64,000 bases of DNA. Source: Peribolospora baueri. Taxonomy: Eukaryota. Within the stretch, counting starts at the first letter, position 1; every line of letters starts with the position of its first letter. Shown here piece by piece: positions 5 to 49,911 of the stretch. A program made the position numbers and the translations under genes. A model generated the notes under the pieces. It was not told the DNA's origin. It saw only the letters and a list, made by a program, of their open reading frames with translations, and searched no databases. The stretch lies in NCBI GenBank assembly GCA_029717555.1, contig JAMDHS010000042.1, positions 1-64,000 on the forward strand. Reading direction: 5' to 3'.

Positions 5-5
5 A

Positions 6-32
<27 letters not shown>
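5..32. repeat. poly(A) homopolymer, 28 nt
   Basis: Directly visible A-run at the window start. Confidence 0.95.
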
Positions 33-11171: not shown

Positions 11172-12450
11172 CCGGCCGGTCCCGCGTGGAGCCGGCCGCA
11201 TGGTTGCATGTCGTGTAGCGCGGTACTTACATGACCCAGTCAATCAGCTATGTGCCAAGAAGTCCGTCGTCGCCGTGGAAGCGGTGCTGAGCAAAGTAGC
11301 CTTTCACTCGAGTCACACTGCGCAGCGCGCAGCTGCGTGGACGGATTGGTTGGGGTGGAAGGCGAAGAGTTGTGGAGTCGAACGAAACGGAGCGTTTCTC
11401 GCCTCACCTGATAACGGCCCACATGGCGTGAACTTCTTCGATCGTCCTGTCCTGATCGCTCTGAGGGCGGATCTGTTTTCATCTCTCTTTCTCTCCCCCT
11501 CGATCCCGGAGAAACAAAAATGCCGGAAGGGCGCCGGAGTCGTTTGCGGATCGGGAGGCCCATTGGTCAGATCCAAGATATCCAGATCCTAGCCGTCACT
11601 CAGTCCGTCAGTCATTCAGTGAGTAACTACAAATTGCATTTCGTTATTTCTTTTTGATATTACAAAAGAACTCAGTCGCTTGCACAGCCTTGCCGGGTCT
11701 TGGCCCTCGAATGTCTGTCTGTCTATCTATGACACAGCGAGGTCGTACTTAGCAAGTGTTCCCCAGACTAGTTTGCGTCCCCACCCTTGGTTGCATCTGT
11801 CCACGTGTGCGTGCAAGAACGTGAAAGGGGTGCGATTGCGTCCGTGCCACTCAGAGCGTGTGTCCGACTCGTTCGATTGTTCGTTCGTTCGTTCGTATGT
11901 CATTCGTCCGACGGAACAAGGACAACGAAGCACACACCTGTCGTTGCTACCCGCCGTTGCCGAACGCCGTCCCCACATCACCATGCGCCCGGCCCTCGGC
12001 GACCGACCGCAAGCCCGATTCTATCGGGCGAACGCAAGTCCGGGATCGGACGTCACAGCCCCGTTACGCCCGGTTGCAAGTCCGTGCGGTTAACCAACCC
12101 AACGAACCAGACGGAGTCGCCGCCGGGTTCAGTCTGCCGTCGATCATCCACCGCCACCACCGTCCCTCGAATTGGCAAGCGACGCGGAAAACAGGAAACA
12201 GGATGACGTTAGAGACAGAGGGACAGAGGGAATCTCCCCTCCCTCCTCGCTTCCGACGAGGGCGCGCGTGGAAATGAGGGAGAGACATCGAAATCGACCT
12301 GCCCACGCCACGCCCGCCCTCTCTTCTCCCGCCCCTAATCACGATCGACTGACCTCATCGTAGCTGTGTGGGGGAGATCAGAGCAGGGCAGATCAGATCA
12401 GAGCAGAGGGGAAGGTCGACAGCAGAGCGTCCCGACAGCATAAAAACCCC

Positions 12451-12515
12451 GGCAGACACGCCGAATGCGTTCCCTCCTCCTCGCACACTGGAGCCCGTCT
12501 TCACACAGGTAATAC
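12451..12515 (+). repeat. 65-bp dispersed direct repeat, copy 1 (between a TATA-like CATAAAAA and the EGT1 ATG)
   Basis: GGCAGACACG...CACACAGGTAATAC is identical to 28451-28515. Confidence 0.97.
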
Positions 12516-12735
12516 CCACAGTAATCCCAGCAGCTTCCCGCCGCCATCGAGTCCCCCGCTCCGCCGTCGACAGACTCGTAGACGACGCACAGATTGACAG
12601 GGCAGAAGAAACAAGAAACAAGCACAGTGAACCCGCTCGTCGGTGACCCTGCTTGCTGGTGAACGACAGCCCCCCTCCACGCGTCCCGTCTCCCGCACAG
12701 CCGAGCCAAATCTGATCTTATCGCCGCCGATAACG

Positions 12736-15700
12736 ATGGCCCCCGTTCGCATCCACTCGCCCTCGCCTACGCCCTCGCCCGTGGCCATCTTCGACACCCG
12801 CGTCATCGACCTCCCCGTCGACCACCGCCCCGCTCAGCGCTCCCTGCGCTCCCAGATCATCGACGGCCTCCGTGGTCTCTTTCCCCCCGAAGCGCTCCCC
12901 GACGCGAATGTCACCACCTCCTCCGTCGAGTCCAAGTGGAGGTGCGCCCGTAGCCTGCCGACGCTGCTTCTCTACGACAATAAGGGACTCCAGATCTACG
13001 ATCGCATTCTCTCCGATCCCATCTCAAGGGCCGACTACTATCTCTTCGACGCCGAGCTCGGCATCCTCAAGGCCCACGGAGCCGACATCATCCAGCGCAT
13101 CTCCCCCCCCACCTGGGACCAGCTCTCCTTTGCAGACGGGCAACGTCAAGGCGGCGGCGGCGGCGGTGGCGGCGGCGGTGGCGGCGGCGTGCCCTTCGTG
13201 AACCAGCTACCCCAGGGACATACCAAGCCGGCGGAGAAGGACCGGTGGGGCAACTTTAGCGGCGGCGTCAATAATGACGGCGTCAATGGCGAACACCGCC
13301 TCGGTCTGTCCGTTTCCCATCTCACCGCCTGCAACGGGCCCGGTAGCAAGGTGCACGCCGGCTGTGAGGAAGGGGCGGAGGGGCAGGGAACGAGTGCCGC
13401 CGGTGGGGAGAGGCGGGGAGAAGGACAGAAAGCAGGCAATGAAACCGATGATCAATTCGCGAGCGCCCACCATGACACCGCTAAGAAAGGCTATCTCGTC
13501 GAGCTCGGCGCCGGAAGCCTGAGAAAGACGAGCCATCTCCTCAAGGCTCTCGCCGATCACGCCGTCCACGCCGCTGCCACCGTCGACGACGACGTGGCTC
13601 CCTACACCTACTACGCCCTCGACCTCGACAAGGGAGAGCTTGAGCGCACGCTCTTCGACTTGTCTGCCGGTGCGATCAACAACAGCCAGAGCGCCGGCGC
13701 CGGCGCCGCTGATGGTCGCGAGAACGCGGCGTCCGACCAGGGCTTCGAGGAAGATGGAGTGGTGAACCTCGAGTTGGGAGGAAGGGTCGAGCTCCTGGGC
13801 CTCTGTGGCACCTACGAGCAGGGCATCCAATTCATCCGTCGCGGCGGACTCGATGCCGCCGGCGGCGGCGGTGTCCAAAACCAAGGCCCTCCCAGATGTC
13901 TTATCTGGCTTGGCTCGTCCGTCGGCAACTTCCCCCGTCCGGCCGCCTCCGCCTTCCTGCAGCGTCTCGCCATCGCCTGTCTCCGCCCACCCCGCCCGGC
14001 CGCACCTCACTACCGTCACGAAGCTGCCCAGCAGGGCTCGGCCGTCGTCGTCGATCGCCAAATCGTGGGCGATACGTTGCTCATCGGCATCGACCGTCGC
14101 AACGACCCGGACGTCGTAGAGAGGGCCTACGACGACCGCGCGGGCTGGACGAGAGAATTTGAGATGAACGGCCTCGACGTCGCCGATAGGGTCTTGAAGG
14201 GACTCGGCGTGGAGGAGACGAACGCGAACGTGGAGGAAGAAGAGGGCGACCATAAGGTGCTCGATAGGGCCAAGTGGGAGTATGCCCACAGATACAACGT
14301 CGAGGAAGGTTAGATCGCGCTAACCCATCCGCATCTCCCCCCGCATTCGGCTGCTGACTAAGTCATTCCCCTCTCTTTCATGCACGCCAACTATCATGGG
14401 CAACCCTTCCTATCTGGCGTCCGCATCCCACTCTCGATAGGCCGTCACGAGGCGTACTACCGATCTCTTGAGGACCAGGTGATCGTCGTCCCACCCCTGG
14501 ACGGCGAAGAAGGGGTCAAGATCCCCATCAAGATGGGCGAATTGGTGAGTCCCTCTTGACCGTTCCTCTCCTGTTCGCGGTCGGTCAACTCGCCGTCTGA
14601 GACCGACTCCTAACTAATCATGATCGACGTGACCACCCCCACTTTTCTCCGTCAGGTGTCGATCGAATGCTCGTACAAGTACTCCGACACCGAGGTGGCC
14701 ACCCTCTTCGCCTCTGCCGGACTGCGCGTCATCCAGAACTGGATCGACGATAGCGGCAGGTACGGTCTGTGGCTCGTCGAGCGACCCGCGTTCTCCTTCT
14801 CCGCTGGCGAGGTCAACCGCGCCGTCCAAGAGGAGGTGGAGGAGGCCAAAGGGCAGGGCGAGACGCTGCAAAGGAAGGAGAAGGGCGACCGGACGCTTGG
14901 AGAGCTCCGTCGCGATGCGGCTGCCTCCTCCTCTCCGGACAGAGGCGAACACGAGCACGAGCACGGCGGCGGCTCTCCGGCAGGCTCTCCGGCGGCCGAG
15001 GGCAGGCCGTTTGGCGTGCCGAGCCTGTCGGAGTGGCGCGAGCTGTGGAAGTGCTGGGACACCATCACCCTCGGCATGATCCCTCCGTCCATGCTCATGG
15101 ACAAGCCCATCGACCTGCGCCACAACTGCCTCTTCTACACCGGCCACATCCCCGTCTTCCAGTCCATCCACCTTCGTCGCGCCCTCGATCTCGCACCCGT
15201 CGAGCCAGCGTGGTTCGAACAAGTGTTCGAGAGGGGCATCGATCCGAACATGGAGGACCCGAGCAAGTGCCACGACCACTCGGAGGTGCCGGAGAAGGAC
15301 GATGACTGGCCGAGCTTGGACGAGGTGCTCAAGTACAGGGACGAGGTGAGGCAGAGAGTGACCAAGGTGTACGAGGAGGTAAGGAACGGGGAGAGGAAAT
15401 GGACGAGGCGGCTCGGTAGGGTCATGTTTATGGTGAGCGGCTCTTTCTCTCGCGTGCTGCTGCTGCTACTACCGTATTCCGCATTCGCTCATCTTCCCCG
15501 TTTCTCCCTGAAAAGACCTTCGAGCACGAAATCATGCACGCAGAGACGCTTCTTTACATGCTCGTTCAGCGCGCCGACGTCGCGCTTCCGTTCTGGGACG
15601 GCAAGCACACTCTCCCTCCCCCAGGCTTCGCCGTACCCGACTTTGCCACTCTCGCCTCGCACTGGGACGCCGAGGTGGCTCGTATGGGCGGTGAGGCTGC

Positions 15701-16842
15701 GCTCCATGATCGGACGGTCACCTTTGAGGGCGAGACGACGTTCAACGTCGGCCACGACGACTTCGAGGCGGAGGACTGGGACAATGACGGCGACGAGAGG
15801 ATCATGACCGGCGGTGAGGAATTCGGGTGGGACAATGAGTCGCCTAAGAGGACTGTCACCGTCGGACCGTTCAAGATCGCCGAGGCGCCCGTCACGAATG
15901 GACAATGTGAGCGAACGGCTGTCGTATCGGGAGTCGCGAGCGAGGAGCGCAGGGGTTCAAGCCTTTTTCCGGTTTTCCTTTTTCCTTTTTCCTTTCTCTC
16001 CTCGTGCAGATTACGATTTCCTCAAGTCCACCTCTGCCCTCTCCGACGATTCCCTCTTCCCGGCCTCCTGGGTGCGATCTTCGAACGCCGGCACGGGCAC
16101 GGGCGAGGAGGTGGCTCTGGTGCGCACGCTGTACGGGCCCATCCCGCTGTCTCAAGCCCATCACTGGCCTCTGCAAGCGTCGGCGAAGCTGCTCGAGGCA
16201 TACGCGGCTTCGCGCGGTGGTAGGTTGCCGACGGAGGACGAGCTGAGGCTGTTCATGGACCGTCAGGAGGAGCAAGGCGGGAGCGTCAAGGTGACGGGCA
16301 GGAACGTTGGCTTCGAGAGGTGGCATCCCGTTCCGTGAGTGTACTTGACGCTCCTTCCCTTGTCGCGCCCCAAGTCGAAGAAGATCGACTGACGGTCCCC
16401 GAGCGTCTCTATATCCTATGACACCCGCCGCCTTCTCACGGCCACGACAGTCCCCGTCTGCCGTCGAGAGACGCCAACACTGGGATCGCCACTCCAGGCC
16501 ACAACGGCGGTGTGTGGGAGTGGACTTCGACGGCGTTCGTAGCTCACGACGGCTTTATCCCGTCCAAGCTATACCCGGGCTACAGGTGAGTTGTCGTCAC
16601 TCAGCTACTCTGGCCGCGGGGCCCATCCGCCTCTCACGCCTGACCTTTTTATTTTTTTGTCGTCCTCCTTTCTTGTCCTCTGACCGACCAGCGCCGACTT
16701 CCACGACGGATCGCACCTCGTCGTCCTCGGCGGATCCTATGTCACCCACTCGCGCGTGGCAGGCAGACGCACGTTCCGAAACTGGTACCAGGCCGGCTAC
16801 CCCTATGTCTTTGCCGGAGGTAGAGTCGCTTGGGACGTGTGA
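12736..16842 (+). CDS. EGT1: Ergothioneine biosynthesis protein 1 (histidine trimethyltransferase fused to sulfoxide synthase), 7 exons, ~1151 aa
   Basis: EgtD-like domain: RSLPTLLLYDNKGLQIY, VELGAGSLRKT, YYALDL, LGSSVGNF, AYDDRAGWT, IECSYKY. DinB-like domain: PIDLRHNCLFYTGHIP, FERGIDP, CHDHSEVP, metal-binding EHEIMHAETLLYM. FGE-type C-terminus: FGWDNESP, GGVWEWT, FRNWYQ. Exons 12736-14308, 14441-14544, 14656-15432, 15516-15906, 16010-16334, 16451-16585, 16692-16842 sum to an open frame. Confidence 0.95.
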
Positions 16843-16955
16843 TCGGTTTTTTCGAGGCGGTGGCGGCTCAGAAAAGTCAGAAGTAGGGCCTCTGGGCGGA
16901 CCATTGGAACCTTAGGTTCTCTGCCTCTGTCTGTGTCTCTGTCTTTATCTATTTC

Positions 16956-16977
16956 TGTGTGTGTGTGTGTGTGTGTG
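16956..16977. repeat. (TG)11 microsatellite downstream of EGT1
   Basis: Directly visible. Confidence 0.9.
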
Positions 16978-18640
16978 CGTCGCCTATTTTGGTAATCTCT
17001 CCAGTCCTGTCAAGACGCCGTCCGAATTGGGTGATCCCCGCAGCAGCGTCCTGTTCTCGCTCGCTTTGCCCCCTTGTCCCTTACGCTTCGCTTCGGATGG
17101 GGGGACGGACGATCCGATCCGGAAAAAGATTTCTTCACGACGCCTTGGGGTTGCCTCCACATTCTCCCGGGGACGCCCGCGAAAGGGGGAGAGAAGAGAG
17201 AGAGAAGAGAGCATGGCAAGGAGTCTTTCTTTCTTTGTGACAGACAGACAGACAGACGGACAGACGGGGCTGGGCTTAAGGGAGCACGGGCGGGGCTATC
17301 CGACCAAGGGGGGGAACAGGTACAGGGGTTGCGGGGACAAGAGTTCGCGCGTTCGTTGGTTGGTGATCGGGATCCCGTTTCGTTTCGTTCGTTGAGGGGA
17401 AAGCCGCGGGCGGGTAGGCAAGTGGGAACGGGGCAGCTGGATGAGAACGGACAGACGGAGGGTGAGTGACCACGCGATCACGATCCGAATCGGCTCGGCT
17501 GTGGCTCGGCTGTGGCTCGGCTGGATTCGTCTTGGCGGGGAAGTCGTGGAGGGCGGAGAAGGAAGGCAAGACGATGGGGAAAGAGTCGAGTTGGGTGGAT
17601 TGTACATCCTACTGCTGCTTGTTCAGCTCCTCCTCGTCGTACGCGAAGCGGCCGGCGACCCCAAGTTGGGGGAGCGTAGTCGTGCGACCACGACCACGAC
17701 CACGTCTGTCTGTCTCCCTCCTCGCTTCGATGGACTCGATCGCCCTGCAGCGGCGAGAGTGGCGTGGCCAGCGACGGGCGACGGGCGACGGGCGTTGTTA
17801 CGTGCTTGCCGGACATACATACACCTACATTCTACATCTGCATGTGGTGGGTGCTGCATGCGCACGCAAGTTATTGCGAGGAGCGGACAAGCGCCCATGT
17901 GCTTGGCTGCGGCAAGCCACGCGGGCAACGGCGAGCGAAATCGATGAGGGGCAAAGTAGGGTTAGCGGAGCGAAGCCAGTCGAGGACGGCCGGGCGGGCA
18001 GAAGCGATAGGCTGACGTCGTAGGTGAGCAAGAAAAAGGAAGAAAAAGGCGCCGCCTTGGCCGACGACTTGGCGTTCGCTCACAGTGCAGGGCTCGACGG
18101 GGCTAACAGGAACGGCCGGCTGCCGGCGAAGTGGCGGGGCGCTCGCGTGCATCTGGAGTAGGGGTGGAGCGGTGGAGGGGGGCGTTCGAGTTCCCCCTCC
18201 GCGGACGCCACATGGAGGCAGGCCGGCGTCGAGGTCGCCTCTAGATGGCTACGGACCTCGCTTAATGTACGTACGCACTTGGATGCTCAACTCACACGCT
18301 CGCTCGCCCTAGTCTTTGCTCCGGGCCCGTTCCGAGCGGCCAGGTAGGTAAACAAGGCGAGTGCGTAAGAAGGCCTCGGGGTCAACGCCATGTGGACTTG
18401 CACTAGGACGCGGTCGTCCACAGCGAAGACACCGCTCCCCCGGGCTCCCCTCCTGGATGGATGAAATCCAGCCTGGCTGGCGCGGCGTTTGCTCGAAAAA
18501 AAAAAACGAGGCCGACGACCGTCCGTCCGTCGTTGGCGGTCAAGGCGAGGGCGGCATGTGGCGCACTCGGGGAATGCACAGCCAGACGGGGTGGGGTGGG
18601 GCGAGCGAACGAGGGACACGTCGTTACGCGGAACGATGTA

Positions 18641-19715
18641 CTTATCTCGCTCTCTCATCTCCACCCCCTCCCCTCATCCTGCGCGGGAAGAACGGTGGGC
18701 GGCACCAGACGCCCACGGGTTCAGTGAGACTCCTCATGCCGCGGAGTAGAAAGAGCTGGGGGATAAGCCGGCCAAGCCAGCTGGCCGCTCGTCCCGCCGC
18801 CTTGTCCGTCCGTCCGTCGTCTTGTCGTCTTGTCATATCATCATCTCGTCGCCTGCTCTTTGAGTTGAGCGGACGGGGTGGGAGCCGGAGAGTTGCGAGG
18901 CGAGGCAAGACACACGACCGACCGACCGCCTTGGCGACCATCCATGGCCGAGGCCCCGGGCGAGTCGAGACGAGTCGAGAAGGAAACAAGTGAGACATAT
19001 TGTGGAACGGTGCGGTGCGCCCAGGTCCACCGCGCTCTCCAAGCTTGCTTGCGCTTGGACTGACCTGACCGACTGCTGGGCCGGTTCGGTTCGGTTCGGT
19101 TCGACTGGAAATTCTTTTTTTATGCCGGGACAAGCCCATGCGATCTTGCATCCGCTCCCGCCGTATGGACCGGGCTGGACAGGATAGGACAAGGACGGGG
19201 CAGGTCAGGTCAGGCCAGGACAGGACAGGACAGGACAGGAACCAAAGACGAACGCCGACGCGGCAGTCCGTCCGTCCGTCTGTCGTCCCCTACCATCGCT
19301 GTCACAAAGTCCCCCTGGTCCTCGTCCTCGTCCTTCGTGCTCGAAAGCGCTCTACGTAGGACGACGATGCTGCAAGGATGTTCCTTCATGCTCCTTATCG
19401 TGCCGCCAGTCTCTTCCTCGCCCCCATTGGCCGAGGATCGAAAGTATCTTGTGCGCGGTTCGCTACGCCGTGGAGGAGGGGAGTATGTTCTTTCCCACCG
19501 CGGCTCCAATCGCACGCCCACGGCTCCACTTTGCGATCCCCGCCCGCCCGCTCACAGCCGCCGGCCGTCCTCCGCCGCATAAGGCAAGGCAAGGCAAGGT
19601 CTGCTCGCGCGACGTCGTCGCCCAGAGATAAGCCCAGGCGCAGCGCAGGCGGAGGCGGACAATCAATCAGTCGGGCGACAGACAGACAGACACCGCCAGT
19701 CCCCGCCTTATATAA
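18641..19715 (+). promoter_or_regulatory. Putative promoter of the amino acid permease: four GATAAG sites and a TATA box
   Basis: CTTATC 18641-18646, GATAAG 18762-18767, CTTATC 19394-19399, GATAAG 19627-19632, TATATAA 19709-19715 followed by a pyrimidine-rich leader. Confidence 0.5.
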
Positions 19716-19906
19716 CCCCAATCCCCCTCCACTCGATCCCGTCCCCCTCCTCCTCACCATCCCTCCCCTTTCCCCTCCTCCTCCGTCGCACTCGCCACCG
19801 TCCTTACCCCTCCCTCTCCTTCTCCTCCCTTACCCCCCCGCTTCCCATCCAGGGCCTTCCCACAGCCCTCCCTCGCCCGCTCCCTCCCCTCCCCTTCTTC
19901 ACCGCC

Positions 19907-21725
19907 ATGTCGGACTACGACAAGGAAAAGCTAGAGTCAGGCGACGTCATTGGGGCCACTGTCCCCGTCGGCGACCTCGAGTCGAACAGCTACAATGACC
20001 CCAACGCCGTCCACGTCGGCGGTCTCGACCCCAACTCGCCCGATGGCACCGTCAAAAGGAACCTCAAGCAGCGACAGTGAGTATCTTCGTTCCCTCGCTG
20101 TTCCTCGCGTTGCATTTTCCCTCTGCTCTTTCCATTCATCACCATCGCCTTTGCTTCCCGTTTTCCCCAGTTTGTCCATGATTGCCCTCGGTGGTACGAT
20201 CGGTACGGGTCTCTTCGTCGGTTCCGGCGCCGCCCTCGCCAGCGCCGGCCCCCTCAGCACTCTGCTCGGATACTCCATCATGGGCATCATCGTCTGGTCG
20301 ATGATGATCGCCCTCGGCGAGATGGCGACGCTCTTCCCCGTCTCCGGTGGTTTCACTCATTATGCCACCCGCTTCCTCGACCCTTCTATCGGTTTCGCCC
20401 TCGGCTGGAACTACTGGTACTCGTACGCCATCACCCTGCCCACCGAAATCACCGCCGCCGCCCTCGTCATCCAGTACTGGGACTCCCAAGTCAAGATCAA
20501 CCCGGCCGTCTGGATCACGGTCATGCTTGCCCTCGTCTACCTCATCAACTTCTTCGGCGTCCGCTGGTACGGTGAGGCCGAGTTCTGGTTCTCCAGCATC
20601 AAGATCATCACCATCATCGGCCTGATCCTCCTCGGTCTCATCATCGACCTCGGCGGAGGACCGACCCACGACCGTATCGGCTTCCGTTACTGGAAACACC
20701 CGGGCGCCATGGCTCAGCTCTTCCACCAGGTCGACGGCGCGGGCAACATCATCGACGAGGGCATTCCCGGCTCCAAGGGTCGCTTCCTCGCCTTCTGGAA
20801 CGTCTTCGTCCAGGCCGCCTTCTCCTTCCTCGGTACCGAGATCGTCGCCGTGACCGTGGCCGAAGCCGAGAACCCGCGCAAGACGGTGCCCAAGGCGATC
20901 AAGCGCGTCTTCTGGCGTATCCTCCTCTTCTACGTCCTTGGCATCTTCATCATCGGCATCTGCGTCCCCTACACCGACCCACACTTGCTCTCCCCCGTCC
21001 ACAACGCTTCCGCCTCGCCCTTCGTCATCGCCATCCAGAACGCGGGCATCAAGGTGCTCCCCCACATCGTCAACGCCGTCCTCCTCATTTCCGCCTGGTC
21101 CGCCGGCAACTCGGACATGTACGCCTCTAGCAGGACGCTCTACGCCCTCGCCCTCGACGGCAAGGCTCCCCGCTTCATTCGCCGCTGCACCAAGGCCGGT
21201 CTTCCTGTCTTTGCACTCATCTGCACCGGCGCCGTCGGCGTACTCAGCTACATGCAGTGCGGCTCCACCGGCGCCGCCACGGCATTCGGCTACCTGAGCT
21301 CCATCTCCTCCATCACCGGCATCATCACCTGGGCTTGCATCCTCGGCTCGTACATTCGTTTCTACCACGGTCTCAAGCGCCACGGCATCGACCGCGACAC
21401 GCTTCCGTACAAGGCCCCCTTCCAGCCGTACATGTCCTACTTTGGCTTCTTCTTCCTCATCTTGGTCCTTATCTTCTGCGGCTTCACCGTCTTCCTCAAG
21501 GGCCAATGGGACACGCCGACGTTTGTCACCACCTACTTCACCATACCCCTCTTTGTCGTCATGTGGATCGGCTGGAAGTTGGTCAAGAGGACAAGATGGG
21601 TGTCCTATGAGGACATGGACTTTGTCACTGGCCGGCGCGAGCTGGACGAGATGGATGAGGACGCGGCCGCGAACGAAAAGGTGCCCACCACGGCGGTCGG
21701 CAAGTTCTTCGACTGGCTCCTCTGA
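19907..21725 (+). CDS. Amino acid permease (APC superfamily, yeast amino acid transporter family), 2 exons (intron 20077-20170)
   Basis: [87 protein letters not shown]; about 12 hydrophobic segments. Confidence 0.95.
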
Positions 21726-22701
21726 GCCCGCCATTGTCTTTCCTCCTTCCTCTCCTTCCCCTCTCTCTCTGTCTTTCCTTCGTCTTCATCTCTCCTCTCC
21801 GTCCCGTCGCCATCTCTTGGCTCCGCCCCCCCTCCTCTTCCTCATACTGTCTTGTCTGTAGTCATCTTGGAAGATTTCCGCTTTGCTTCGCTCGCCCTCC
21901 GCGTTCTCCTACTACATTCGGTGGTGCTCGCAATTCGAAATCCTCTTTCGCATACCCAACAAAACACGCCCGTCTGTGTTTGCTTGCAAAAGGTTTCTGC
22001 TTTTGGTCCCTGGAGGTGGTGGGGGTGGGGGTGTTTTGTGATGATTCCAAGGGCGAGAGGGCGGGGGGGCGCCGCCCTCTGAACACGCGCTTGTGGGCTT
22101 TACCTTGGCATTCTCATCTTCCGGTGAGGGATCGATCGAATTGGAAGTTCAAGTTTGTGAGTAGGGTGGTGTCGTCCGTTCCGTTTCTTTTATTTATGCC
22201 TCGTGCAGCAAGCAAGCAAGAAAGAAGCAGATATACCACGCCGGGATTTCTCTCCCTCTTTCCCTCCCACTCACTCACCGCATGCCCGGCGCCGCATGAT
22301 CGAACGGTCGGGATCGGGATCGAGGGAGGCTGCGTGGGACGGACGGACGGACGGCATGAGCGGCTTGGCTTGGTCCTCGGGCTGGCAGGCGGTCGGTCGC
22401 AGAATGGACCTGGCAGATAAAGGGCATCAATCATCATCGACGAGACGAGGATGGAAGGGTTGTCCGAAGATCGACAGACAGATAGATAGACAGACAGTAG
22501 TCAGTCCGTGCGCATGTCATGTGATTGAGAGGTGGCGGCGGGCTGCGGCATGTCCATAGGAGCCCTTATTAGCGACCATCTTCGCCTCGCCGCCAACGTC
22601 GCTCAACCCCCCACGACCGCACGCTCGACTTGAGAGAGAGAGCCCTCTCTTCCCCCCCTCCCCCCTTCTTCCCCCCTCGCCCCCCACCGGCGCAGTGACA
22701 C

Positions 22702-24432
22702 ATGTCGGCCAATTCTGACGTTGGCGCCGGTCGCTCGCGTAGGCTTTGGTCGTCCTGGTTCCGTAGCTCCGGCGCGCCTGATGATGAGCAGCTCGTGGAC
22801 GATGACGAGCTCGAAGGCACGCCCGTTTGGGTGGGTACCAACGCTCCTACTCTGCCTTCCCTCGCCTCGCCCGGCTCGAGACGGACGGAATAGGCTGACA
22901 TCTTTTGTGCCTCTTCTTGCCCAGCTCACCCTGTGGGACTTGCTTCCCCCAGGCAAACTCTCCACCGCAGGCTTCTTCTTGGGCATAGGCATCTTTCACA
23001 GTCAAGTGCGCTCCTGGTTGCCGTTTTGTTCCCGGCTCGTAACTTTATCTCGCGCGCAACACCCGCCTATTGACCTCGCGGTGGGCCATCTTTTCCTTTT
23101 CGTTTAACTGCTCCCCATCTTCGTCCTGCCCATATAATCCTCTACCAGGTTTTCCTCCCTGACCTCTCCCTCGAATACGGCTTTGGCGCACACGCATACC
23201 CCGGCGTCACCGGCGTCTTCGCGCTGCCGCGGCAACCCGGACCGGCTTCGGAGTCGCAGCCACCGCCTCTTCCGGGAGCACGATACATCGGTAGCTACTT
23301 TATCGGAGAGGCGTGGCCGGAGGGGGATCCCCGGCGCGGAAGGGTGATCAAGAAGAGAGAAAACAATAATAAGGCGACGAGGGAAGGCGGCTCTGGACCT
23401 ATGGGATGGTTCGACCAGGGGGACGGCGGGGCGTGCGGTCCGTCCTGGTGGGCCTGGGGCTCGTCCATGTCGGCCCTGTCGACGTCTCCGTCTGCGTCGC
23501 GCGCAAGTCTCGTGCCTGGAGAGGCGGACGCACCTGGGCGACGGCCGTCGGCAGACACGCTCAGGTGCCCGTCGTCGCCAGACCTCTCCGATGCGGCGCG
23601 ACCGTCCTTCACGTCGTCGTCCCCTCCCCCTGCTCGCCCGATGTCCGTTTCGTCAACGTCGGCGATCGCACACGGAGGAGAAGAACAGGACATCGTCCCA
23701 AGGAGCCCAATGGTAGGCTCCCTGGCCGGGTCAACCTATATCCGACATCCCCGTCACGGCCGCGATCGGGCACGCAGCTTGGCTTTCGCCCTTCAAGTCG
23801 TGCAAAAGGCGAGTTTGCTAGTTCACTGCTCCTTTGGCCAGATCGCGCCTCGAGACATGGCGCCTCTAGATCTCGCACGAACGGCTGATCCGAAAACATC
23901 CTCTCGTCCACTTTGCTTGCGCGGCGCAGATGAAGAAGGACGAAGCGTGGAACGGTACAAGCTACGATCTCTTAGACCGTAACTGCTCCCATTTCAGCGA
24001 GGTGCGCGTCCGCCACAACTGTTTTTCACGTCTCCGATGTCCATTTCCCATGCCCTCGCGCGAATACGAGCTGAGCGATCGTCACGGGGCGGGCGACGAC
24101 GTGGCAAATCGCGCATGTCTCCTCGTTCGCCTCCCTCCCTTCTCTACCTCGCCGTTCAGGAACTCGTCCGCAGACTCACCGGCCGCTCCATTCCATCCTT
24201 CGTCAACCGTGCCGCCTGGCTCGGCTCCAGCCTTCGGTGTATCGTTCCTTCTAGCTTGATAGGTGAGACGTCCGAAGCGGCGCCGTCTGGAGATGCTCCT
24301 CTCGGCCGCTACGCGGACGATGTGCCACCATCGGAGCGAGCTCCCCTTCAGAGACGAACCGATCGTCCGCCCCGGCCGAAGCCGTCGCCAAGGACGAGTG
24401 CCAGTCCAAGTCAGTCGCCCCTGTTGCGGTGA
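22702..24432 (+). CDS. PPPDE/DESI-family cysteine isopeptidase (deSUMOylase/deubiquitinase-like), multi-exon
   Basis: GIGIFHS (catalytic His), EYGFGAH, GVTGVF, WNGTSYDLLDRNCSHFS (catalytic Cys), IPSFVNRAAWLG. Confidence 0.85.
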
Positions 24433-24854
24433 CGGAGGCGTTCCCTTCCCGGTTCTCCTGAATACCTTTTGTTGCTCTGCTAGATTCTCTCGCTCCTCTA
24501 GAGTAGAGCAGTGTAGTGTAGAATAACTCGTGCTTGTTAGTTATGGACGAGGGTGTGCGGACGACGGGGCCAGACGGCCAGGGGACATGATCGTCTTTAC
24601 GCGCGAGTCTACGCCCGTCACCGTGTCTGTCTATGACTACTTTGGCCCGTGCGACTAGAGGCGCACTGAGCGACTGCGGAGGGATCGATCTGGTGTGGAT
24701 GGCCCGCTTGGAGCTCTGCCAACGTTGGAGGGTTCGAGCTTCCATGTTTCCGACTCACCCATTCGCCTTTGCCTTCCCCAGCTGAGAGCCGAGATAGACG
24801 TAGAGGTCGGAAGAGAAAACCGGCTCCACGTCGAACGAGCGGCATAGAATCACC

Positions 24855-27449
24855 ATGGCCGTTCGCCGCGTGCCTGACGCGGGCCGCTCCGACGAGCGCG
24901 AGCCGCTCTTACCTTCTCCGGCGGTGGCCGCTTCCACCGATGCCAGCAGCAGCAGCTCTGCCGGCCCTTCTCATCGTCACGGTGACGGTAAAGGCGATGG
25001 CCGACAAGGGACGAAACGCCGACGTCAAGGACGGAGCGGCGGAGCTGTGGACGGCGGCACGAGGACGGCCACAACGCCGCTTCCCAGGTTTCAGCTGTTC
25101 GTCCTCGGACTGATGAGGTTCGGCGAGCCCATCTCGTTCACCTTCATCTTCCCTTTCATCAACGAGGTGAACTCTTTCGTTTGCGAGTGAACTGTTTTGG
25201 GAGCCGCGCGGAAGAGAGAGAACCTGGCTCGTCGCGCTTGGACCTTCCCGTCTTTGGTGCTTGAGCGGAGACGCGTGCTGACGTTCCTTGGCATCGCCTT
25301 GAATTCTTCAGATGGTCGTCGAGGTCGGCGTGACTCGAGACAAGGAGCAGGTTGGCTACTATGCCGGGATGATCGTGAGCCTCCTCGTTTTCTTCCCATG
25401 CCATGACCCCCCAAGAGCGGCCGGGGAACCAACTTTGACCCTTCGCACGTTCTCCTGTTCCAATTGTGCGCGCACCTTCGACCCTCGTAGGAGTCCATTT
25501 TTTCGCTCTGCCAGTTTGCCACCGTTCTCTTCTGGGGCCGCCTCTCGGATCGAGTGGGCCGTAAGCCGGTGCTGATCTCTGGTCTCTGCGGAGTCAGCGT
25601 ATCCGCGCTTCTGTTCGGTCTCAGCACCACGTTTTGGCAGATGGTGGTTGCGAGGTGTTTAGCTGGAGCGCTCAATGGAAACGTGGCGTGCGTAGATTTA
25701 GTTCGTTCCATCCAGGCACCTAGGGAAGCGCTCCTGTTTCTTTGATTTTGACATGAACCCTTTTGTCGATTTTTTTCCTGGCAAGGATAGCATCATCAAG
25801 AGCGTGGTCGGAGAGATTTGTGACAAGACCAACCGAGCCCGCAGTTTCGCTCTCTTGCCACTCTTCTTTGCTCTTGGCAGTACCATCGGGTGAGAGGTTT
25901 CAGTAGACCCTGGTTTTCGTTGCTGTACTTGCTGATAAAATTCGTTCGCAACTTTCCCCATGTGCTTTGCCTCATAGACCCATTATTGGAGGTTATTTGT
26001 CCCACCCCGTAGAACGGTATCCTGACATATTCGGTGGAATTTCGCTTTTTAAGAAATATCCTTATTTATTCCCCTGTCTGGTCTGTGCGGGCATCACTTG
26101 GATCTCCATCATCGTCGGCACTCTCTTCTTGGAGGAGGTGAGTGGAGAGAGGATATGCGCACGCAGGATGTTGGCTAGGCGACAACCTCCTCGTTGACTC
26201 TTGCGTGATGGCGCTACTTGTCCACTTTGTATCAAGTCCCTGGAACGGAAGAAGGTCAAAAAGCGGTTGGCGGCTCTCCCAGAGGAGCAGAGAGCGGAAG
26301 AAGCCGCTCAGGAAGGCTCAGCTTCTCAATCGCAACCTGGAACAACGTATGGCTCTGTGGCATCTCAGTATGGCGACCTCAACCTCGGCAAACGTCGACC
26401 GGCAATCCCGACTTCGAATAACGCGGATCCGGACTCCAGACCCCTTTTGACGAACGGGGTGGCGTCCAGCTCCACGCTGGCGACGGAAGCTGAGGAGATG
26501 ACCGGGGAAGTCTCTGCTCCGACGCCTGTCCCTTCGGCTCCGCCCTCGTTCGTCGAGATCCTTTCGGACCCTTTAACGCTGCGTGTCCTGCTCACTTATG
26601 CCCTTCTGGCTCTCAAGGCGGTCGCGCTCGAGGCAACGCTCGTGCTCTTCCTCTTCACCCCCATTCACTCCGGCGGACTCTCGTTCTCCGAATCGCAAAT
26701 CGGAACAGCTCTCGCCGTGTCGGGAGCTAGCACGATGCTCGTTCAGCTTTTCCTTTTTCCCCCTGCCCAGCAACTGCTCGGAACGGTGAGGTTGTATCGC
26801 CTCAGTCTGGGGCTGTACCCTCTCATCTGCTGTCTCTTGCCGTTCGCCAATGTCCTCGCGAAGAGGGGGAAGTTGGAGGAGGCCGAGTCAGTAAGCGGAC
26901 CTAGCGTTACGGTGATCGTGCTCGTGGGGTTGGTTCTTTTGCTTAAGACGATAGCGAACATGGCTTTCGGTGAGTTGGCACGAGCACACTGAGGTCTGGG
27001 GAGGCTCAAAAGGTCCTGTTAATGGACTGATTGACTGAGCGTTTCTTTTTCTTCATCGCCTCAGCTTGTAACATGATCGTGGTGAACCAGTGCGCACGGA
27101 CGGGCTCGAGCTTGGGCGCTATCAACGTATGCATCCTTGTTGTTATCGTAGTCTGCTCACCTACGCTCTTCCGCGCTCACCACCACTGCCCCTGTCGTTG
27201 TCCTTATCTGTCGACCATTCCATCGGCGAACAGGGCATAGCTCAAATGGTCGCCTCCGCAATGCGCTTCATTGGCCCAGGCGCAGCGTCCACGCTGTTCG
27301 CTCTGTCTGCGTCTCGACAGCTGCTCGGCGGTTACCTCATTTGGGTGTGCATGGTCCTCCTCGGTTTGGCTGCTACAGGCGTCAGCTGTACCTTGAGAGA
27401 AAGGGATGGGGACGACGAGGAAGAGGAGCGTGAGCAGGAGCGGATGTAA
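24855..27449 (+). CDS. Major facilitator superfamily transporter (12-TM, DHA1/ZIF1-like), about 8 exons
   Basis: EPISFTFIFPFINEMV, VGYYAGMIES, WGRLSDRVGRKPV (MFS motif A), RCLAGALNGNV, GPIIGGYL, YPYLFPC, SLGAINGIAQ. Confidence 0.88.
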
Positions 27450-27774
27450 GGCGAGCACGAAAGCGAACGCTCAACGCGAGGCATGGCGAACGACGCGTAC
27501 GCAGAGGCTGGAATCCAGATAGTCCCTGTATCATCTTTGCACCTCCTGTCGCCTTCTAGGCGCGAGTCGTAAGGACTGGATCCTTTCATTCCTGGTGCAG
27601 CAGAATTTCTCGTACGGCGAAGCCCATTTTGATTTGACAACTATTCACAAATCACTACGAAGCTAATCCCCAAATGGAAAGGTAATTGCGCGAGTCCACA
27701 GGAGAGATACGGTCGAGTGCCTCCAGGGGCCAAGAAAGAAAAATTGTTGAACCTCCGGGAAGGATAGAATTCCC

Positions 27775-29798
27775 CTATTCAGTCTTCTTTCGAGCCCAGC
27801 AATACACCAAACGAAAAACGACAGGAGACGCGAGATTCTCCAGCTCTCCATGCACACGATGAAGGAAGTCCGTAATGCTGTTGAAAGAGACTACAGCGTT
27901 AAGTGCCACTTCATGGACTAACATTGTATATCGCGGAGGTGACACTCACTATGCTTCATCATGTCCCTTGTCCACAAGGTCAGGCCTAGAGAAGGAGATG
28001 AGCGTGCCATTCCTCCTTCTGCTTTCATGGACACATGAGCCCCACTCGCCTGGCCAAGTCGATGATCATCCCAAAGTCCTTGGCAAACTGCATGCGCCCA
28101 TCTCCTTCAACACAGGGTCTTGGGGGCAAGCAAAAAAGGCTTGGCAGTGATCAACGGCTTTTTTCCCGATGGAAAGCTGCGGGAGACGTTATGGCACTTA
28201 CCTGTCGACCACGCTCCCACAGGGACATCGAGAAAGTCAAAGCCGACGTCGGCCAAATCTGCATGGTCCCGTAGAAGCTGAACGAGCTGGTTTCCCTGTA
28301 CGTTAATAGAACGACGCGCCCGACGGCGGGCACATACAGACAGAGTGAGTAGATCTACCTCTTTCCTTCACAAGGCGCAGCTGGAGCAAAGCTTACTCCA
28401 TAGAAGCGAGCGCCCTTTGCTTCGGCGCGACGCTGGAAGATGTCCCACCAGGCAGACACGCCGAATGCGTTCCCTCCTCCTCGCACACTGGAGCCCGTCT
28501 TCACACAGGTAATACTAAGCTTTATCTTCTTGCTCTTTAGGGTCGAACTGCAGCGAACAGGGTTCAAAGGCGAGCAACAAACCACCGGGCGCCAAGGCGC
28601 CGATGACGCCATCGACGTACTGGGACCAGTCGCTGACCCCGAGACTGTCCTTCCCGCCAGAGAGACAGTGTGAGTTTCTGCTTCGTCGAACGCGAACATG
28701 AAATCTTTTCGTGCGCGGTTTGAAACGCTCACGTTACAGCTCGTGAGTGGATCAGGTCATAGCGATCGCGTCTGTGCCGCTTGAAAATGAAGAAGGGGAG
28801 GGGGGAGAGCAGCGAATAGAGACGTCAGCGTGACAATGAGAACGGCGCGTACAGGTTTCGATAAGGAAACTGAGAAGGCATTATATGGCTTACCCAAGAC
28901 TTGTTCAGATCATCCATCTCGAACGTCACGTTGGGGGAATGCCAGGGGGGTGTACAGGGCCGAGGTCAATGCCGGTGACCTCGGCGTGTGGAAACTCGCG
29001 TCCCTGGCCGACGAGAAGCAAGTGGTGGTGTTATGTCCACGTACGACACACGAGACGACGGGAGGAACAGCACTTGCCATTTCGGTCGCCCAGATGCCGG
29101 ATCCGGTCCCTACGTCGAGGACTGCATGGGAGCAACCCGCCCGGAGATCAACGTCAGCGTCTCGAGAGCTGTTCATGTTTCGAATAATAAGAGAAACGAT
29201 GGACAGACTCTTCCTGCGCCGGTCAGGCACGTCCGTCAGCACGTCATGAACAGGTGCCTTGACATGATAGTTGCGACCGCCGAGCACCTTCTATATGAGT
29301 TGGAAGGAGGAAAAAAAAACGAAGGCGACTTGTGTTCATCACGAGAAGGCGTGCCAGCCAAGGTTAGATGGCCGACGGCGACGTACTTGCAAGAGCTTGA
29401 CGTTCCGGAGGGGCAAGGTAAGCACGCAACTGCGGTCAGAGCGAAGGCCGCCGCTCTCCCGCTCGGGTCAGATCCGTTGACGTATCTGGTGCTGCAAACC
29501 AAGCCGTGTGTTTTCCCGTTCGTCAGGGCAAAGGCCAGCAGAGGTCCTGTCTTGCGGCACACCTAGCGGAGGCTCGCCAAGAGGAGTCGGCCAGCGCAGG
29601 AACCAGGGCAGAGAGAGAGGAGACGAAGAGGGATACGCTTCTAGTTGTGGCGGCCCAGGTTGGGGTGATGAAGACGACCGATTGCATTGCTCCCATCCGG
29701 CCTCGCAAGGGCAGCAAAGACGACACATACGTAGCTCGTCTGACTTAGCGACGCACAACTGGGCTGCTGGCTCCACCTTGTTCGCTCGCAAGGTTCAT
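27775..29798 (-). pseudogene. Class I SAM-dependent methyltransferase (LaeA-like/Methyltransf_23 type) with several disabling lesions; 5' end uncertain
   Basis: Reconstructed motifs LP-DERENTRLGLQHQ, ILDVGTGSGIWATEMGREFPHAEVTGIDL, NVTFEMDDL, YDLIHSR, LAPGGLLLAFE, VPVGAWS, YCWARKKTE*. Joining them needs frameshifts at ~29525, 28933-28937 and ~28095, and an ATACGT in place of a GTACGT donor at 29485. Confidence 0.8.
28451..28515 (+). repeat. 65-bp dispersed direct repeat, copy 2 (inside the methyltransferase pseudogene)
   Basis: Identical to 12451-12515; flanks differ on both sides. Confidence 0.97.
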
Positions 29799-36842: not shown

Positions 36843-39800
36843 CTAGCGCAAGTCGTCCTCATCGTCGTCTTCGTCTTGGTCTTCGACGGCCAGGTCCATG
36901 AGCACCGTCATCCTCCTGGCCGCCCAGCGGTCCCTCTCCGCCTGGGCTTGACTTCGTTCATATCTGCCGGCGTCATGGCCGCGACCGTAGTTGTAACTCT
37001 CCTCCTCCTCCTTCTCCTCCTCCTTCTGTCTCCTGTGGCTGGCCAACCTCGCCAACGTGCGCTCGCCGTGCTTCTCGCAGAGACGCTTTCCGTCTATCTC
37101 GTAAAAGTTCTCCAAAATCTGTCCGCAGGGGATATCGTTGGGCGGGGCGGAGGGCGACATGTACTCGCAGCGGAGACAGGCGGGGTGGAAGCGCTGCTGG
37201 AGCGGCCCTTTCGTCCTCGCCCTCCGGTCGTCCGAGCCGGCGTTGGAGGACACTTGTCGGCAGACGCCCTCGATGCCCTCACCGCAGGCGGCGCACTCGC
37301 TCCCGTTGCGACGGTGGTAGCACCGCTTGCAGAGCGCCTCCTCGCCGTTCCAGATGTAGAAGCTGCCGTCGGCAGGAAAGCTGTCGCCGCACTCGAAACA
37401 GCAAAAGCAGGCCTTGTGGAAGATGCCCTTGAGCTGTCCGTCCGACGACCGCACCGCCTGGTTCGAGATCGGCTTCTTGCACCTCCGGCACTTGGGCAGG
37501 TACAGTCTGGCGTAGTCGGCGGCGCACAGCAGCTGGCCGTCGCGCTCGACAAACGGCTCCCTCTTGTCGTCGAGCCTGGTGCGGCAGATGAAGCACCTCA
37601 GCGTCGTCGAAGAGTCGAAGGCCTGGTGGCTGCGGCTGCGCGAAGACGACGATTCGGTGGCCGAGGTGGGCGACCGGAGCGAGGACGAGGCGCTGGCGCC
37701 AGAGTCCTTGCGCTCCCTCCTCTGCGTCGGGGCCTGCAAGTGCTTCGGGCTCGTGGGCGTGTCCTTCCTGCCCCTGTTGGGCGAGCGGACGGCGTCCAAG
37801 ACGTCGTCGCCGAAACGGTCGTAGCTGGAGCTCGGCGTCAGGGCGGCGCTGGCGTTGGAGCTGCTACCGCCACTGCCCTTGGACCCGCCGCCGCCACCAC
37901 CGTGACGGCGGCCGAGGGAGTGTCGCCGATCGCGAGAGACAGAGCGATCGCGGGATCGGTGGTCCCTGTCCGCGTCCCGATCACCATAGTACCTGTCGTT
38001 GCGATCCCGACCCTGAGCGATCCTCTGCCGCTCCTGCTCCCGCTCCCTTCGCTCGCGTTCCTTGTCTCGCATCTTCTTCTCCGGATGAGGCTCAAGCAAG
38101 CTCTGGGCGCTGTAATCGGATGAGACGGACGAGGAGGGTGAGTGCCTCGACTTGGACGACGTGGTGCGGTCCGTATCCTGTCGACGCGGCCGACTGCCGT
38201 GCGAGCCGCCGCGGGCGCGGACGCGTACGGCGTTCTTTACGGAAGCGGCGTAGGCGAGAGAGGTGACGCTCATGTTTCGATCGTGATACGACGAGTCCTC
38301 GTCTCTCCCGCTGGGGCTCGAAGGCGTGGAGGGCGAGGGCGAAGGACTGTAAGTCTTGGACCTGATGCCCGCGTCCGACTTCGAGCGCTCCCTCTCCTTC
38401 CGACTGTCCATTCTCTCCGGCGCCCGCAGCCCCGAGTCCTTCCTCGTGCGCTCACCGAGCGGCGGTGGCGAAGCCGGACCGGTCTTGTCGCCGTGAAGCT
38501 GGCGGTACTTCTCGAAGAAGGGCATGCTGGGCGAGCTGGGCAAGGGCGAGGTGGGACTGCGCGGGGAAAGCGTGGTGGGAGAGGCGGTGTAGGACGGGAT
38601 GTTGAGCTGTGGGGTTTTCGCGTCGAAGGAGACGTCGACGTGAAGGTTTGGCTTGGCTGGGAGGGGGAGGAAAAAAAGAACAAAGATGGCGAAGGCGTCG
38701 AAAACAAGGGGAAAATTTGCAAGGCGTGCGAGGCGACAAGGTCAGCAACGGAACCGTGCGCGTCTGTGATAGCCACGCGTCTCGACGAACGGAAAGGAAA
38801 CCAATGTTGCGACGACGACGACGACGAGTCACTCACCCTTCCGTCCGTCACCATACTCCTCCTCGTCGCCTTCAGTGTGCACCTTGAATTGGAGCGTCTC
38901 CCTCGTCGCCTTGCCCACCGTGCTCTGGCTCTCCCTCTCCCTCATCCGAGTCGATGACGACGAGTCGCCGTCGTCGGACCTGATCCTCATCCCGCTCGTC
39001 TTGCTTGGCACCGGCGGCACTTTTGCCATCGTCGTCGCCTGCGCCTGCGCCGGACAGACGTGGCCCTCGAGCGCCTCGACGGCCAGCTGGGCGCCGCAGC
39101 CGGTACAGCGGACGAGGGGAACGATGGTACCGTTAGGCTGACGGTGCATGATGCGATGGCCTCCTTCTGCGCCTGCGCCTGCGCCTGCACCGTCACCGCC
39201 GCCGCCGCCGCCTGGCCCATCGTACGCATCAACACCTGCCCCGCCGTACTTCGCAGACCCACCGGCCTCCTCGTCGGTCCACACTTTGCCGCCGAAGCCG
39301 TCGGCGCGAGGGTCGTCGTCGTCAAGGTACTCGGACGCGCGGAAGCCGGTGCCGGCGATCGGCGCCAGCAGTCGGGGCGGGTTAGGAGGGCCGAGGTTGT
39401 GTTGTCGTGAGCCAGGGCCGGAGCCAGAGCCGAAGCCGTAGCCAGAGCCAGAGCCAGAGCCGTCGCCTTGGTGACGACCGGAAGCGTCAGGGCTCCTGCC
39501 GTCATCGTCGAAAAATCCACGCCGGTGCGGGCCAGGGGAAGGCGGGTGAGACCTGTTATCGACCGGGGAAGGATGAAAGCTCGATCCGCCTCCTCGGTCC
39601 GAATCGAAGCCATGCCCGGGGCCGTTTGGACGAGGAGAAGGAGGAGGGGCGGAGCCGGGGTACGGACCGTCGTGGCCGGCACCACTACCGCCGCGATAGC
39701 CGTCGTAGGCGTCATAGCCGCGCCCCGTCCCCATCCCGGCGCCCCCGCTATCGCCGCGGACCTGTATCTCAGGCGCACTAGGTCTCCTGCCGTCGTGGTC

Positions 39801-42088: not shown

Positions 42089-42154
42089 GATATTATCCTT
42101 TCCAGCAAGTGATATTATCCTTTCCGGCAAGTGATATTATCCTATCCGGCTTGT
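42089..42154. repeat. Three tandem copies of a 22-bp unit GATATTATCCTTTCCRGCAAGT
   Basis: Copies at 42089, 42111 and 42133; the third has three mismatches to the second. Confidence 0.92.
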
Positions 42155-49124: not shown

Positions 49125-49911
49125 AGGGTTGATGAGACGGGAAGGTGTGAGCGGGCGACGGACGGACGGTGAAGGAGGCGACAATGATATATGTGTGTGG
49201 AGTGGTGCACCGTTCGGGATGTGTGCGAGCCGACCCGACTGACCTTCGCAGCCGGCGTCTCTCCGTCTCTCTTGCGCTTCCCCATTTTCTCTTGCCTTGC
49301 CGTGACGCCGATGATCACTGGCAAGTACACTCGCGCCGACCCGGGCCATCTATGCGGAGACGCCGAAGCCAAGGCGGGCGGGCACAGACTGACTGGCTGA
49401 CGTAAGCCACATAAGGTGCGTACACTGTACTCCGGTCGCGGCGTCCGCTTGTGGGGGAGTGCGTGCGGTAACGACCGCTCTACGTGCCGTCGCACTCGGG
49501 TTCGTCGTTCGTGGCTTTTTGTCTGTCTGGGATTTGGCCGACATGGAGGGGTGAGAGGAAGGACGAGCGCATGGCGTCAGGGTGCTACTACCGGCAGCCC
49601 CGGCAGAGTCTGGAGATCTCCATACGGCGATGGCTAGTTGAGCGAGCGACTCGGGCACAACGCCGCCCTCGAGTGTCGCCACGTCCTGTCTTCTCCGCCG
49701 GCATCTAGTGTCACCCCCGTTGCGTTTGGTCCACCGCGCGCGCCGGTCTGGTCTGGCTAGATAGATGCTAACTAGATCCGTCACGCTACGCCTGCGCTAC
49801 GTCCGAGCAAAGGGGGATCAGACACGCAGCATGAGTCGCCTCGTCAACCCATCCCCGAAATCCATCTACGCAGTCCGTCCACCGCGCTTTGGCCCCTGTG
49901 ATCGCCGGCAT

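What the first reader, a model, noticed from the sequence alone, without database searches (positions are those of the whole stretch)
12451..28515. Perfect 65-bp sequence shared by the EGT1 leader region and the methyltransferase pseudogene, exactly 16,000 bp apart
Seen: 12451-12515 equals 28451-28515, same strand, non-repetitive sequence, with no terminal inverted repeats or target-site duplication. Identity is 100% although the pseudogene has several lesions, so the copy is recent. Direction is ambiguous. (a) Removing copy 1 leaves CATAAAAACCCC|CCACAGTAATCC, its 3' end (CACAGGTAATAC) resembles that flank, and copy 2 reads as plausible coding sequence (ITCVKTGSSVRGGGNAFGVSA-WWDIF). (b) Removing 64 bp of copy 2 restores an open frame (QEDKA-Y-WWDIF). 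Inference: a templated insertion from template-switch break repair. The exactly round spacing is a warning sign for an assembly or processing artefact.
Basis: partly seen in the sequence, partly recalled or inferred. Interest (0 to 1): 0.8.

Follow-up and report, generated by a model that had tools for sequence, protein, structure and literature searches.

The report
DNA-break repair patch in fungal pseudogene
A 62-base piece of the DNA in front of a fungal antioxidant-synthesis gene was copied into a decaying gene 16,000 bases away, most likely as a patch over a chromosome break; it is real, not an assembly error, and is an ordinary example of a known kind of repair scar.

Summary
The 65-bp repeat is exact (12451-12515 = 28451-28515), and only these two copies were found in the genome. 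It is not an assembly artefact. In two runs of this fungus, contigs built from the reads break 30 bases into the repeat at all four junctions, at depth 83-116; either run may be the source of the assembly. A relative about 2.7% diverged has copy 1 but lacks copy 2 and holds five other letters there. So the piece was copied from upstream of EGT1 into a methyltransferase exon. The scar has 3-bp microhomology, 62 templated bases, one extra base, a 5-bp deletion, and no target-site duplication or poly(A). This is the known signature of a templated insertion at a double-strand break. The gene has four other lesions and was probably already dead. A 52-bp mitochondrial insert 780 bp from the donor looks like a second capture. 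The round spacing is best read as chance. No Pol theta was found. Verdict: a real, polarised, ordinary event.

The parts
12451..12515 (+). Copy 1 = donor; intergenic DNA 221-285 bp upstream of the first EGT1 ATG; left intact
   Evidence: Exact match. The relative's contigs cross 12435-12779 unbroken and miss at most 5 window letters (record lengths and gap counts). Distance.
28451..28453 (+). 3-bp microhomology (GGC) shared by donor and target; 5 of the last 6 bases match
   Evidence: The joint in the relative starts after 28453; junction comparison.
28454..28515 (+). 62 templated bases inserted into the methyltransferase exon (with the microhomology = copy 2, 28451-28515)
   Evidence: Joint 28453->28517 in X3 skips 63 with 5 letters between; X4 has the same 5 letters.
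28516..28516 (+). One base found in neither the donor nor the relative's site (filler, or a substitution); with its neighbours it forms a TAG stop on the minus strand
   Evidence: translation.
27779..29560 (-). Multi-exon SAM-methyltransferase pseudogene (5' end not defined), member of a family of at least 7 loci in this genome
   Evidence: Paralog matches; Pfam hit only at E 0.013.
29525..29550 (-). Probable 10-nt frameshifting deletion (26 nt where paralogs have 36)
   Evidence: Read by eye; rests on a 6-nt anchor present in 4 of 5 paralogs shown, so probable only.
29484..29485 (-). 5' splice site reads AT where 5 of 5 paralogs shown have GT
28933..28937 (-). 1-nt frameshift in a C run
   Evidence: DNA alignments to 5 paralogs show the 1-nt gap; X1 and X2 contigs match the window here with 0 differences.
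28085..28118 (-). +2 frameshift (35 nt where 3 of 3 paralogs checked have 33)
12736..16900 (+). EGT1 (ergothioneine synthesis; histidine methyltransferase plus sulfoxide synthase); the 3' end is approximate
   Evidence: PF10017 and DinB_2; 46 homologs with PF10017 and PF03781.
11620..11671 (+). 52-bp mitochondrial insert (NUMT), one mismatch at 11627; a second capture event 780 bp from the donor
   Evidence: Matches G000:C68:15891-15942, a 32% G+C contig with cox1-like exons and intron ORFs. An X2 contig ends at the predicted 11642; the relative's contigs run through unbroken.

Best explanation
Copy 2 is a templated insertion that patched a double-strand break. After this lineage split from organism B, a break fell inside an exon of an already decaying methyltransferase gene and 5 bp were lost. 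Most likely the left end (ending CCAGGC) paired through 3 exact bases, 5 of 6 in all, with DNA upstream of EGT1 16 kb away on the same chromosome. It was extended by 62 bases, came off, gained one base and was joined to the right end without homology. The donor stayed intact (copy-paste). The net change is +58 bp, a frameshift with a stop at the junction. SHOWN: both copies are real; the direction; the junction anatomy; the other lesions. INFERRED: that a break was the trigger; priming at the microhomology; the enzymes (Ku and Pol X-type end joining with a replicative polymerase, no Pol theta); that the gene was already dead. About 0.85 for a DNA-templated break patch overall; within it about 0.5 for end-primed copying and about 0.35 for capture of a loose fragment. 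The insert has no function that I can show.
For:: X1 and X2 contigs end at 12480 and 28480 and start at 12486 and 28486, 30 bases into the repeat on all four sides, depth 83-116, 0 other letters. X3 and X4 lack copy 2 and keep copy 1; four paralog exons without a break here have 18-20 codons between the conserved E and W positions; the window's flanks plus the relative's five letters give 18, and copy 2 adds 58 nt; junction anatomy; microhomology + deletion + filler was the commonest class (10 of 39) among proximal repair-mediated duplications in primates; yeast insertions are mostly 50-300 bp and copy-paste, depend on Lig4 and Pol4 in stationary cells, and fragments of 60-150 bp insert best. 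Pol X palm (3 matches) and Ku (3 matches, 2 contigs) are in the genome. A nearby NUMT shows break capture happens here.
Against: The microhomology is short: 3 or more matching bases at either of two junctions arise by chance about 11% of the time, so priming is not proven. The break itself is not observable. All four runs come from one study, and X1 or X2 may be the source of the assembly. Tables were cut (470 substitutions, 187 indels, 254 pieces not shown), so the state of copy 1 in B is deduced from lengths and not read letter by letter. X4 is 2 letters short near 28539-28540, so B's exon is probably not open either and B is an imperfect stand-in for the ancestor. In yeast stationary cells such insertions did not need Pol32 or Rad51, which favours capture over copying.
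Confidence: 0.85

Rival explanations
1. Sub-mechanism rival inside the best explanation: a loose 62-65 bp fragment (replication flap or over-replicated piece) from the EGT1 upstream region was captured at the break by Ku/Lig4/Pol X end joining, with no invasion of the donor.
For: The size fits the 60-150 bp optimum, and 0-4 bp microhomology is typical of end joining in yeast. One extra base fits Pol4-type addition. The NUMT nearby can only have come by capture. The donor's right end lies between two imperfect tandem copies; 0.6% of 3000 random positions score as high, a post hoc test.
Against: A free fragment does not need a donor 16 kb away on the same contig in a 22.7-Mb genome.
Confidence: 0.35
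2. Replication-fork template switch (out and back) without a two-ended break.
For: Same orientation, same chromosome, short microhomology at one end. Unchecked earlier notes report fold-back scars elsewhere in this genome.
Against: The return junction has no microhomology and has an extra base, which looks like end joining.
Confidence: 0.07
3. RNA- or cDNA-templated patch from an EGT1 leader or promoter transcript, made by a LINE reverse transcriptase in trans.
For: The donor lies 221-285 bp upstream of the EGT1 ATG. Class 2 TSIPs in humans were proposed to be RNA-derived. An unchecked note reports a LINE chimera in this genome.
Against: There is no poly(A), no target-site duplication and no splice junction in the insert. 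The donor begins about 5 bp behind a TATA-like CATAAAA, so probably upstream of a start site (TATA spacing recalled, not from a call).
Confidence: 0.05
4. Assembly or processing artefact that copied 65 bases across a 16,000-base offset.
For: The spacing is exactly 16,000.
Against: All four junctions are in read-derived contigs of two samples. The changed site has biological anatomy against the relative (63 letters replacing 5), not an equal-length overwrite. A multiple of 1,000 arises once in 1,000 pairs, and the scan covers about 250,000 windows.
Confidence: 0.01
5. Reverse direction (methyltransferase exon to EGT1 leader), or a small mobile element with few copies.
For: Copy 2 is stop-free in one frame, and the flank of copy 1 resembles its end.
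Against: The relative has copy 1 and lacks copy 2. Paralog exon lengths exclude copy 2. Only 2 copies were found, with no inverted ends and no target-site duplication.
Confidence: 0.02

Closest known systems
Repair-mediated duplications of vertebrates (Pace et al. 2009, PMC2671141; abstract, outline and 12 passages seen)
   Same: An insertion of 50 bp or more with one donor on the same chromosome; an empty site in a relative; microhomology (2-9 nt), deletion (1-15 nt) and filler together; no poly(A).
   Different: The donor is 16 kb away, beyond the paper's ad hoc 5-kb 'proximal' group (58 of 1,136 were same-chromosome and over 5 kb). The host is a basidiomycete fungus, not a vertebrate.
Class 2 templated sequence insertion polymorphisms (PMC5110952; abstract and 11 passages seen)
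   Same: No target-site duplication or poly(A); microdeletion, microhomology and non-templated addition; donor intact.
   Different: Their donors are mostly distant and proposed to be RNA-derived. Here the donor is a chromosomal neighbour, and polymorphism within organism A is not shown (both A samples carry it).
Templated insertions at HO breaks in budding yeast (PMC11724301, PMC11372161, PMC12214859; 12 passages each seen)
   Same: Size 50-300 bp, copy-paste, short microhomology, nuclear and mitochondrial donors, in a fungus.
   Different: Those are induced breaks in laboratory strains, rare in growing wild type. This is a spontaneous inherited event; genetic requirements cannot be read from it.
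Polymerase theta-mediated end joining (review PMC9779921; section 7 part 1 and 12 passages seen)
   Same: A templated insertion with short microhomology at a deletion.
   Different: The review says Basidiomycota and Ascomycota lack a clear Pol theta. The one family-A polymerase found here is Pol gamma. The donor is 16 kb away.

Membership tests
Templated insertion at a DNA break (class 2 TSI type) | Insert is a copy of sequence elsewhere in the genome; donor intact | tested here: met
   donor also present in the relative.
Templated insertion at a DNA break (class 2 TSI type) | Empty site in a relative | tested here: met
   Joints at 28453 in X3 and X4.
Templated insertion at a DNA break (class 2 TSI type) | Microdeletion, microhomology, non-templated base | tested here: met
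   5 bp, 3 bp and 1 nt.
Templated insertion at a DNA break (class 2 TSI type) | No target-site duplication, no poly(A) | tested here: met
   Flanks and empty site.
Templated insertion at a DNA break (class 2 TSI type) | Arises at a double-strand break and depends on end-joining proteins | not testable with these tools
   Only gene presence was checked: Ku and Pol X palm matches.
Proximal repair-mediated duplication (Pace 2009) | Donor within 5 kb of acceptor | tested here: not met
   16,000 bp. It works like one but is not filed in that group.
Proximal repair-mediated duplication (Pace 2009) | At least 50 bp, a single other location, repair-type breakpoints | tested here: met
Pol theta-mediated end joining | POLQ gene in the genome | tested here: inconclusive
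   PF00476 gave 1 match, which is Pol gamma (PF18136 E 1e-94). PF21099 gave 0 matches, but the control did not ring either. The assembly may be incomplete.
Retroposed insertion (class 1 TSIP) | Target-site duplication of 5 bp or more and a poly(A) tail | tested here: not met
   definition.
Small transposon or MITE | Terminal inverted repeats, target-site duplication, many copies | tested here: not met
   2 copies found (lower bound); ends not inverted; no significant fold, z +0.3 to +1.5.
Assembly artefact | Junctions absent from reads | tested here: not met
   All four junctions are in X1 and X2 contigs.

The most novel reading that the evidence does not exclude
This basidiomycete lineage, with no Pol theta found, often patches spontaneous breaks with short copies taken from chromatin neighbours tens of kb away. 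Two lineage-specific captures (this insert and a NUMT) lie within 17 kb. If that density is general, organisms A and B, about 2.7% apart, form a natural mutation-accumulation pair. That pair would give a genome-wide spectrum of donor distance and junction types for theta-independent templated insertion in wild fungi.
Probability: 0.2. Interest if true: 0.5.

Novelty: new member of a known kind. Interest (0 to 1): 0.25.

Why it matters
As a single event it matters little: it is a neutral scar in a gene that was probably already dead. It is a clean, polarised natural example of a templated insertion in a phylum said to lack Pol theta, where most mechanistic data come from induced breaks in budding yeast. 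It also shows that a round spacing is not by itself a sign of an artefact. One search that named basidiomycetes (2 papers listed) and one on fungal short dispersed duplications (15 of 21 listed) showed no title on natural events of this kind in basidiomycetes. These were listings only, and most subscription journals are not held. The value would rise if an A-versus-B survey showed many such events with a donor-distance bias.

Tried and rejected
Artefact: rejected. Reverse direction: rejected. Mobile element or structured RNA: there are no inverted ends; the donor folds no better than shuffles (4 folds, z +0.3 to +1.5); Rfam on 11200-12800 gave 2 matches at E about 0.5, far below gathering scores. 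Idea that the insertion killed the gene: not supported. There are four other lesions, and X4 also seems frameshifted in the same exon. Idea that the junction AG lets a 34-nt cryptic intron hide the stop: seen and set aside; it is shorter than usual fungal introns (recalled), one search found no consensus branch site there, and other lesions remain. Dating by identity: uninformative beyond 'after the split'. Search of protein representatives with the 41-aa exon: 2 hits, both repetitive and unrelated. No RNA holder was listed, so expression was not examined. Genome-wide rate: the whole genome could not be examined in scripts. Window 100-40000 was searched (42 matches; by length and identity only this pair and the NUMT were 50 bp or more at 98% or more). 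The searches of 40001-60000 and 40001-50000 were not scored, and 60001-64000 was not searched. PMC12214859 and PMC7407515 passages added little. No supplementary files were read; Table S1 of PMC2671141 may bear on donor distances.
Full report
Observation. The stretches 12451-12515 and 28451-28515 are identical over exactly 65 bp, on the same strand, 16,000 bp apart; BLAST gives 68 bp at 98.5%, E 9e-27. No other non-tandem exact repeat of 18 bp or more at a spacing over 33 bp exists in the window. The window is G000:C362:1-64000 of a 22.7-Mb assembly in 668 contigs. Searches with 401 bp around each copy found 2 places each, the two copies; the tool warns that counts are lower bounds. The nearest named homologs of the gene beside copy 1 are smut-group basidiomycetes at about 35% identity (46 hits among 7,993 candidates). 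Its domains are those of Egt1.

Artefact test. Four runs hold the region, all from one study: X1 and X2 (organism A, 0.99 of words, each flagged as a possible source of the assembly) and X3 and X4 (organism B, 0.26-0.27). All four were laid on 12000-29000. In both X1 and X2, contigs end at 12480 and 28480 and begin at 12486 and 28486. That is 30 bases into the repeat on each of the four sides, at depth 83-116 with 0 other letters, and one record fits two places. A graph of 31-letter words gives this pattern when both copies and all four junctions are in the reads (inference from how such graphs break at repeats). The listed X1 contigs cover the spacer with 0 gaps except 8 bases. These runs are not independent samples of the population, but they are independent of how the window was assembled. 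The round spacing is therefore best read as chance: one pair in 1,000 has a spacing that is a multiple of 1,000.

Direction. B differs from A at 454 places in the 17,001 bases laid (X3; about 2.7%, slightly inflated by paralog contigs). At locus 2, X3 joins 28453 to 28517, skipping 63 letters with five letters (CTTGA) between; X4 shows the same five letters. At locus 1, B's contigs cross 12435-12779 without a joint. Record lengths (373 and 380 against 345) and gap counts (38 and 45) mean at most 5 window letters are missing, so copy 1 is in B. The indel positions were among 187 rows not shown, so this is a deduction. Paralogs agree. A search with the exon in front of copy 2 found 6 other loci. 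The four with no break in this exon have 18-20 codons between the conserved E and the W position; the window's flanks with B's five letters give 18, while copy 2 adds 58 nt and a stop. So copy 1 is the donor and copy 2 the insertion.

Anatomy. Left junction: 3 bp of exact microhomology, with 5 of the last 6 bases alike. Insert: 62 bases. Right junction: no homology and one extra base. Target: 5 bp lost. There is no duplication and no poly(A). Three or more matching bases at one of two junctions would occur by chance in about 11% of cases, so priming at the microhomology is likely but not shown. The donor has no notable fold and no Rfam match near threshold.

The target gene. Against paralogs it carries four more lesions: a probable 10-nt deletion at 29525-29550; AT for GT at the splice site at 29485 (5 of 5 paralogs shown have GT); a 1-nt loss at 28933-28937; and +2 at 28085-28118 (3 of 3 checked). 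X4 has one extra letter somewhere in 28541-29000, which may be the C-run, but it is 2 letters short near 28539-28540, so B's exon is probably frameshifted as well. X3 has +2/-7 letters, not located. Two of the 6 paralogs are visibly broken in the same exon. Perfect identity adds little to the date: a copy made at the split would still be identical with probability about 0.19.

A second capture. Window 11620-11671 matches contig C68 (52 bp, 1 mismatch), a 32% G+C contig with cox1-like exons and intron ORFs, i.e. mitochondrial (the gene names are my reading of the translation, not a family search). An X2 contig ends at 11642, the position predicted for a break at this repeat (X1 ends at 11654). 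B's contigs run from about 9170 through it unbroken, which suggests B lacks it. Among the 42 matches of window 100-40000 elsewhere in the genome, only this NUMT and the 65-bp pair were 50 bp or longer at 98% or more. The rest of the window could not be scored or was not searched.

Mechanism. The best reading is a patch at a double-strand break. Either the left end primed on the donor, copied 62 bases and was end-joined to the right end (about 0.5), or a loose donor fragment was captured by end joining (about 0.35). The genome has Ku and Pol X palm matches. Its single family-A polymerase match is Pol gamma. The POLQ helical domain was not found, but that search had no ringing control. A review states that Basidiomycota lack a clear Pol theta (PMC9779921). 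Against my preferred sub-mechanism, yeast stationary-phase insertions needed Lig4 and Pol4 but not Pol32 or Rad51 (PMC11372161); a hybrid priming-plus-end-joining model is described in PMC11724301. Fork switching (0.07) and an RNA template (0.05) are not excluded.

Comparison and novelty. The scar matches the commonest breakpoint class (microhomology + deletion + filler, 10 of 39) of vertebrate repair-mediated duplications, but lies beyond that paper's 5-kb proximal limit (PMC2671141). It meets the junction features of class 2 templated sequence insertions (PMC5110952). It works like these and belongs to the broad class of templated insertions; it is not filed as a proximal RD or as theta-mediated joining. 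Six paper searches were run; from listings alone none reported natural events in basidiomycetes, which is weak evidence. This scan's notes held nothing near this place and nothing with these words. Verdict: real, direction resolved, a new member of a known kind, interest 0.25.

Noticed in passing
window 11620-11671; G000:C68:15891-15942: 52-bp NUMT from a cox1 intron ORF, 780 bp left of the donor; probably specific to organism A.
   Followed up: partly
window 28539-28540: Organism B (X4) seems to lack 2 letters in the same methyltransferase exon, so its copy may be broken too; X3 and X4 differ from each other in indel totals.
   Followed up: partly
L010 (C317:93444) and L011 (C494:53200): Two paralogs of the methyltransferase have frameshifts or a stop in the same exon; the family looks like a birth-and-death family with at least 7 loci.
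   Followed up: no
window 16113-16843; G000:C662:68039-68710: The 3' part of EGT1 has a 78% identical paralogous stretch on another contig, also seen as doubled depth.
   Followed up: no
window 12504-12527: Imperfect tandem pair straddling the donor's right end; 0.6% of random positions score as high.
   Followed up: partly
window 12400-12434: A 35-bp stretch of short purine-rich repeats just left of the donor is replaced by 4 letters in organism B.
   Followed up: no
window 5-31: The contig starts with a 27-nt A run, probably the cause of the contig break.
   Followed up: no
window 39409-39467: A ~55-bp motif with many 78-90% matches on other contigs, arrayed on C88.
   Followed up: no
window 40001-60000: Holds sequence with so many genome candidates that searches were not scored, so probably a high-copy repeat.
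   Followed up: no
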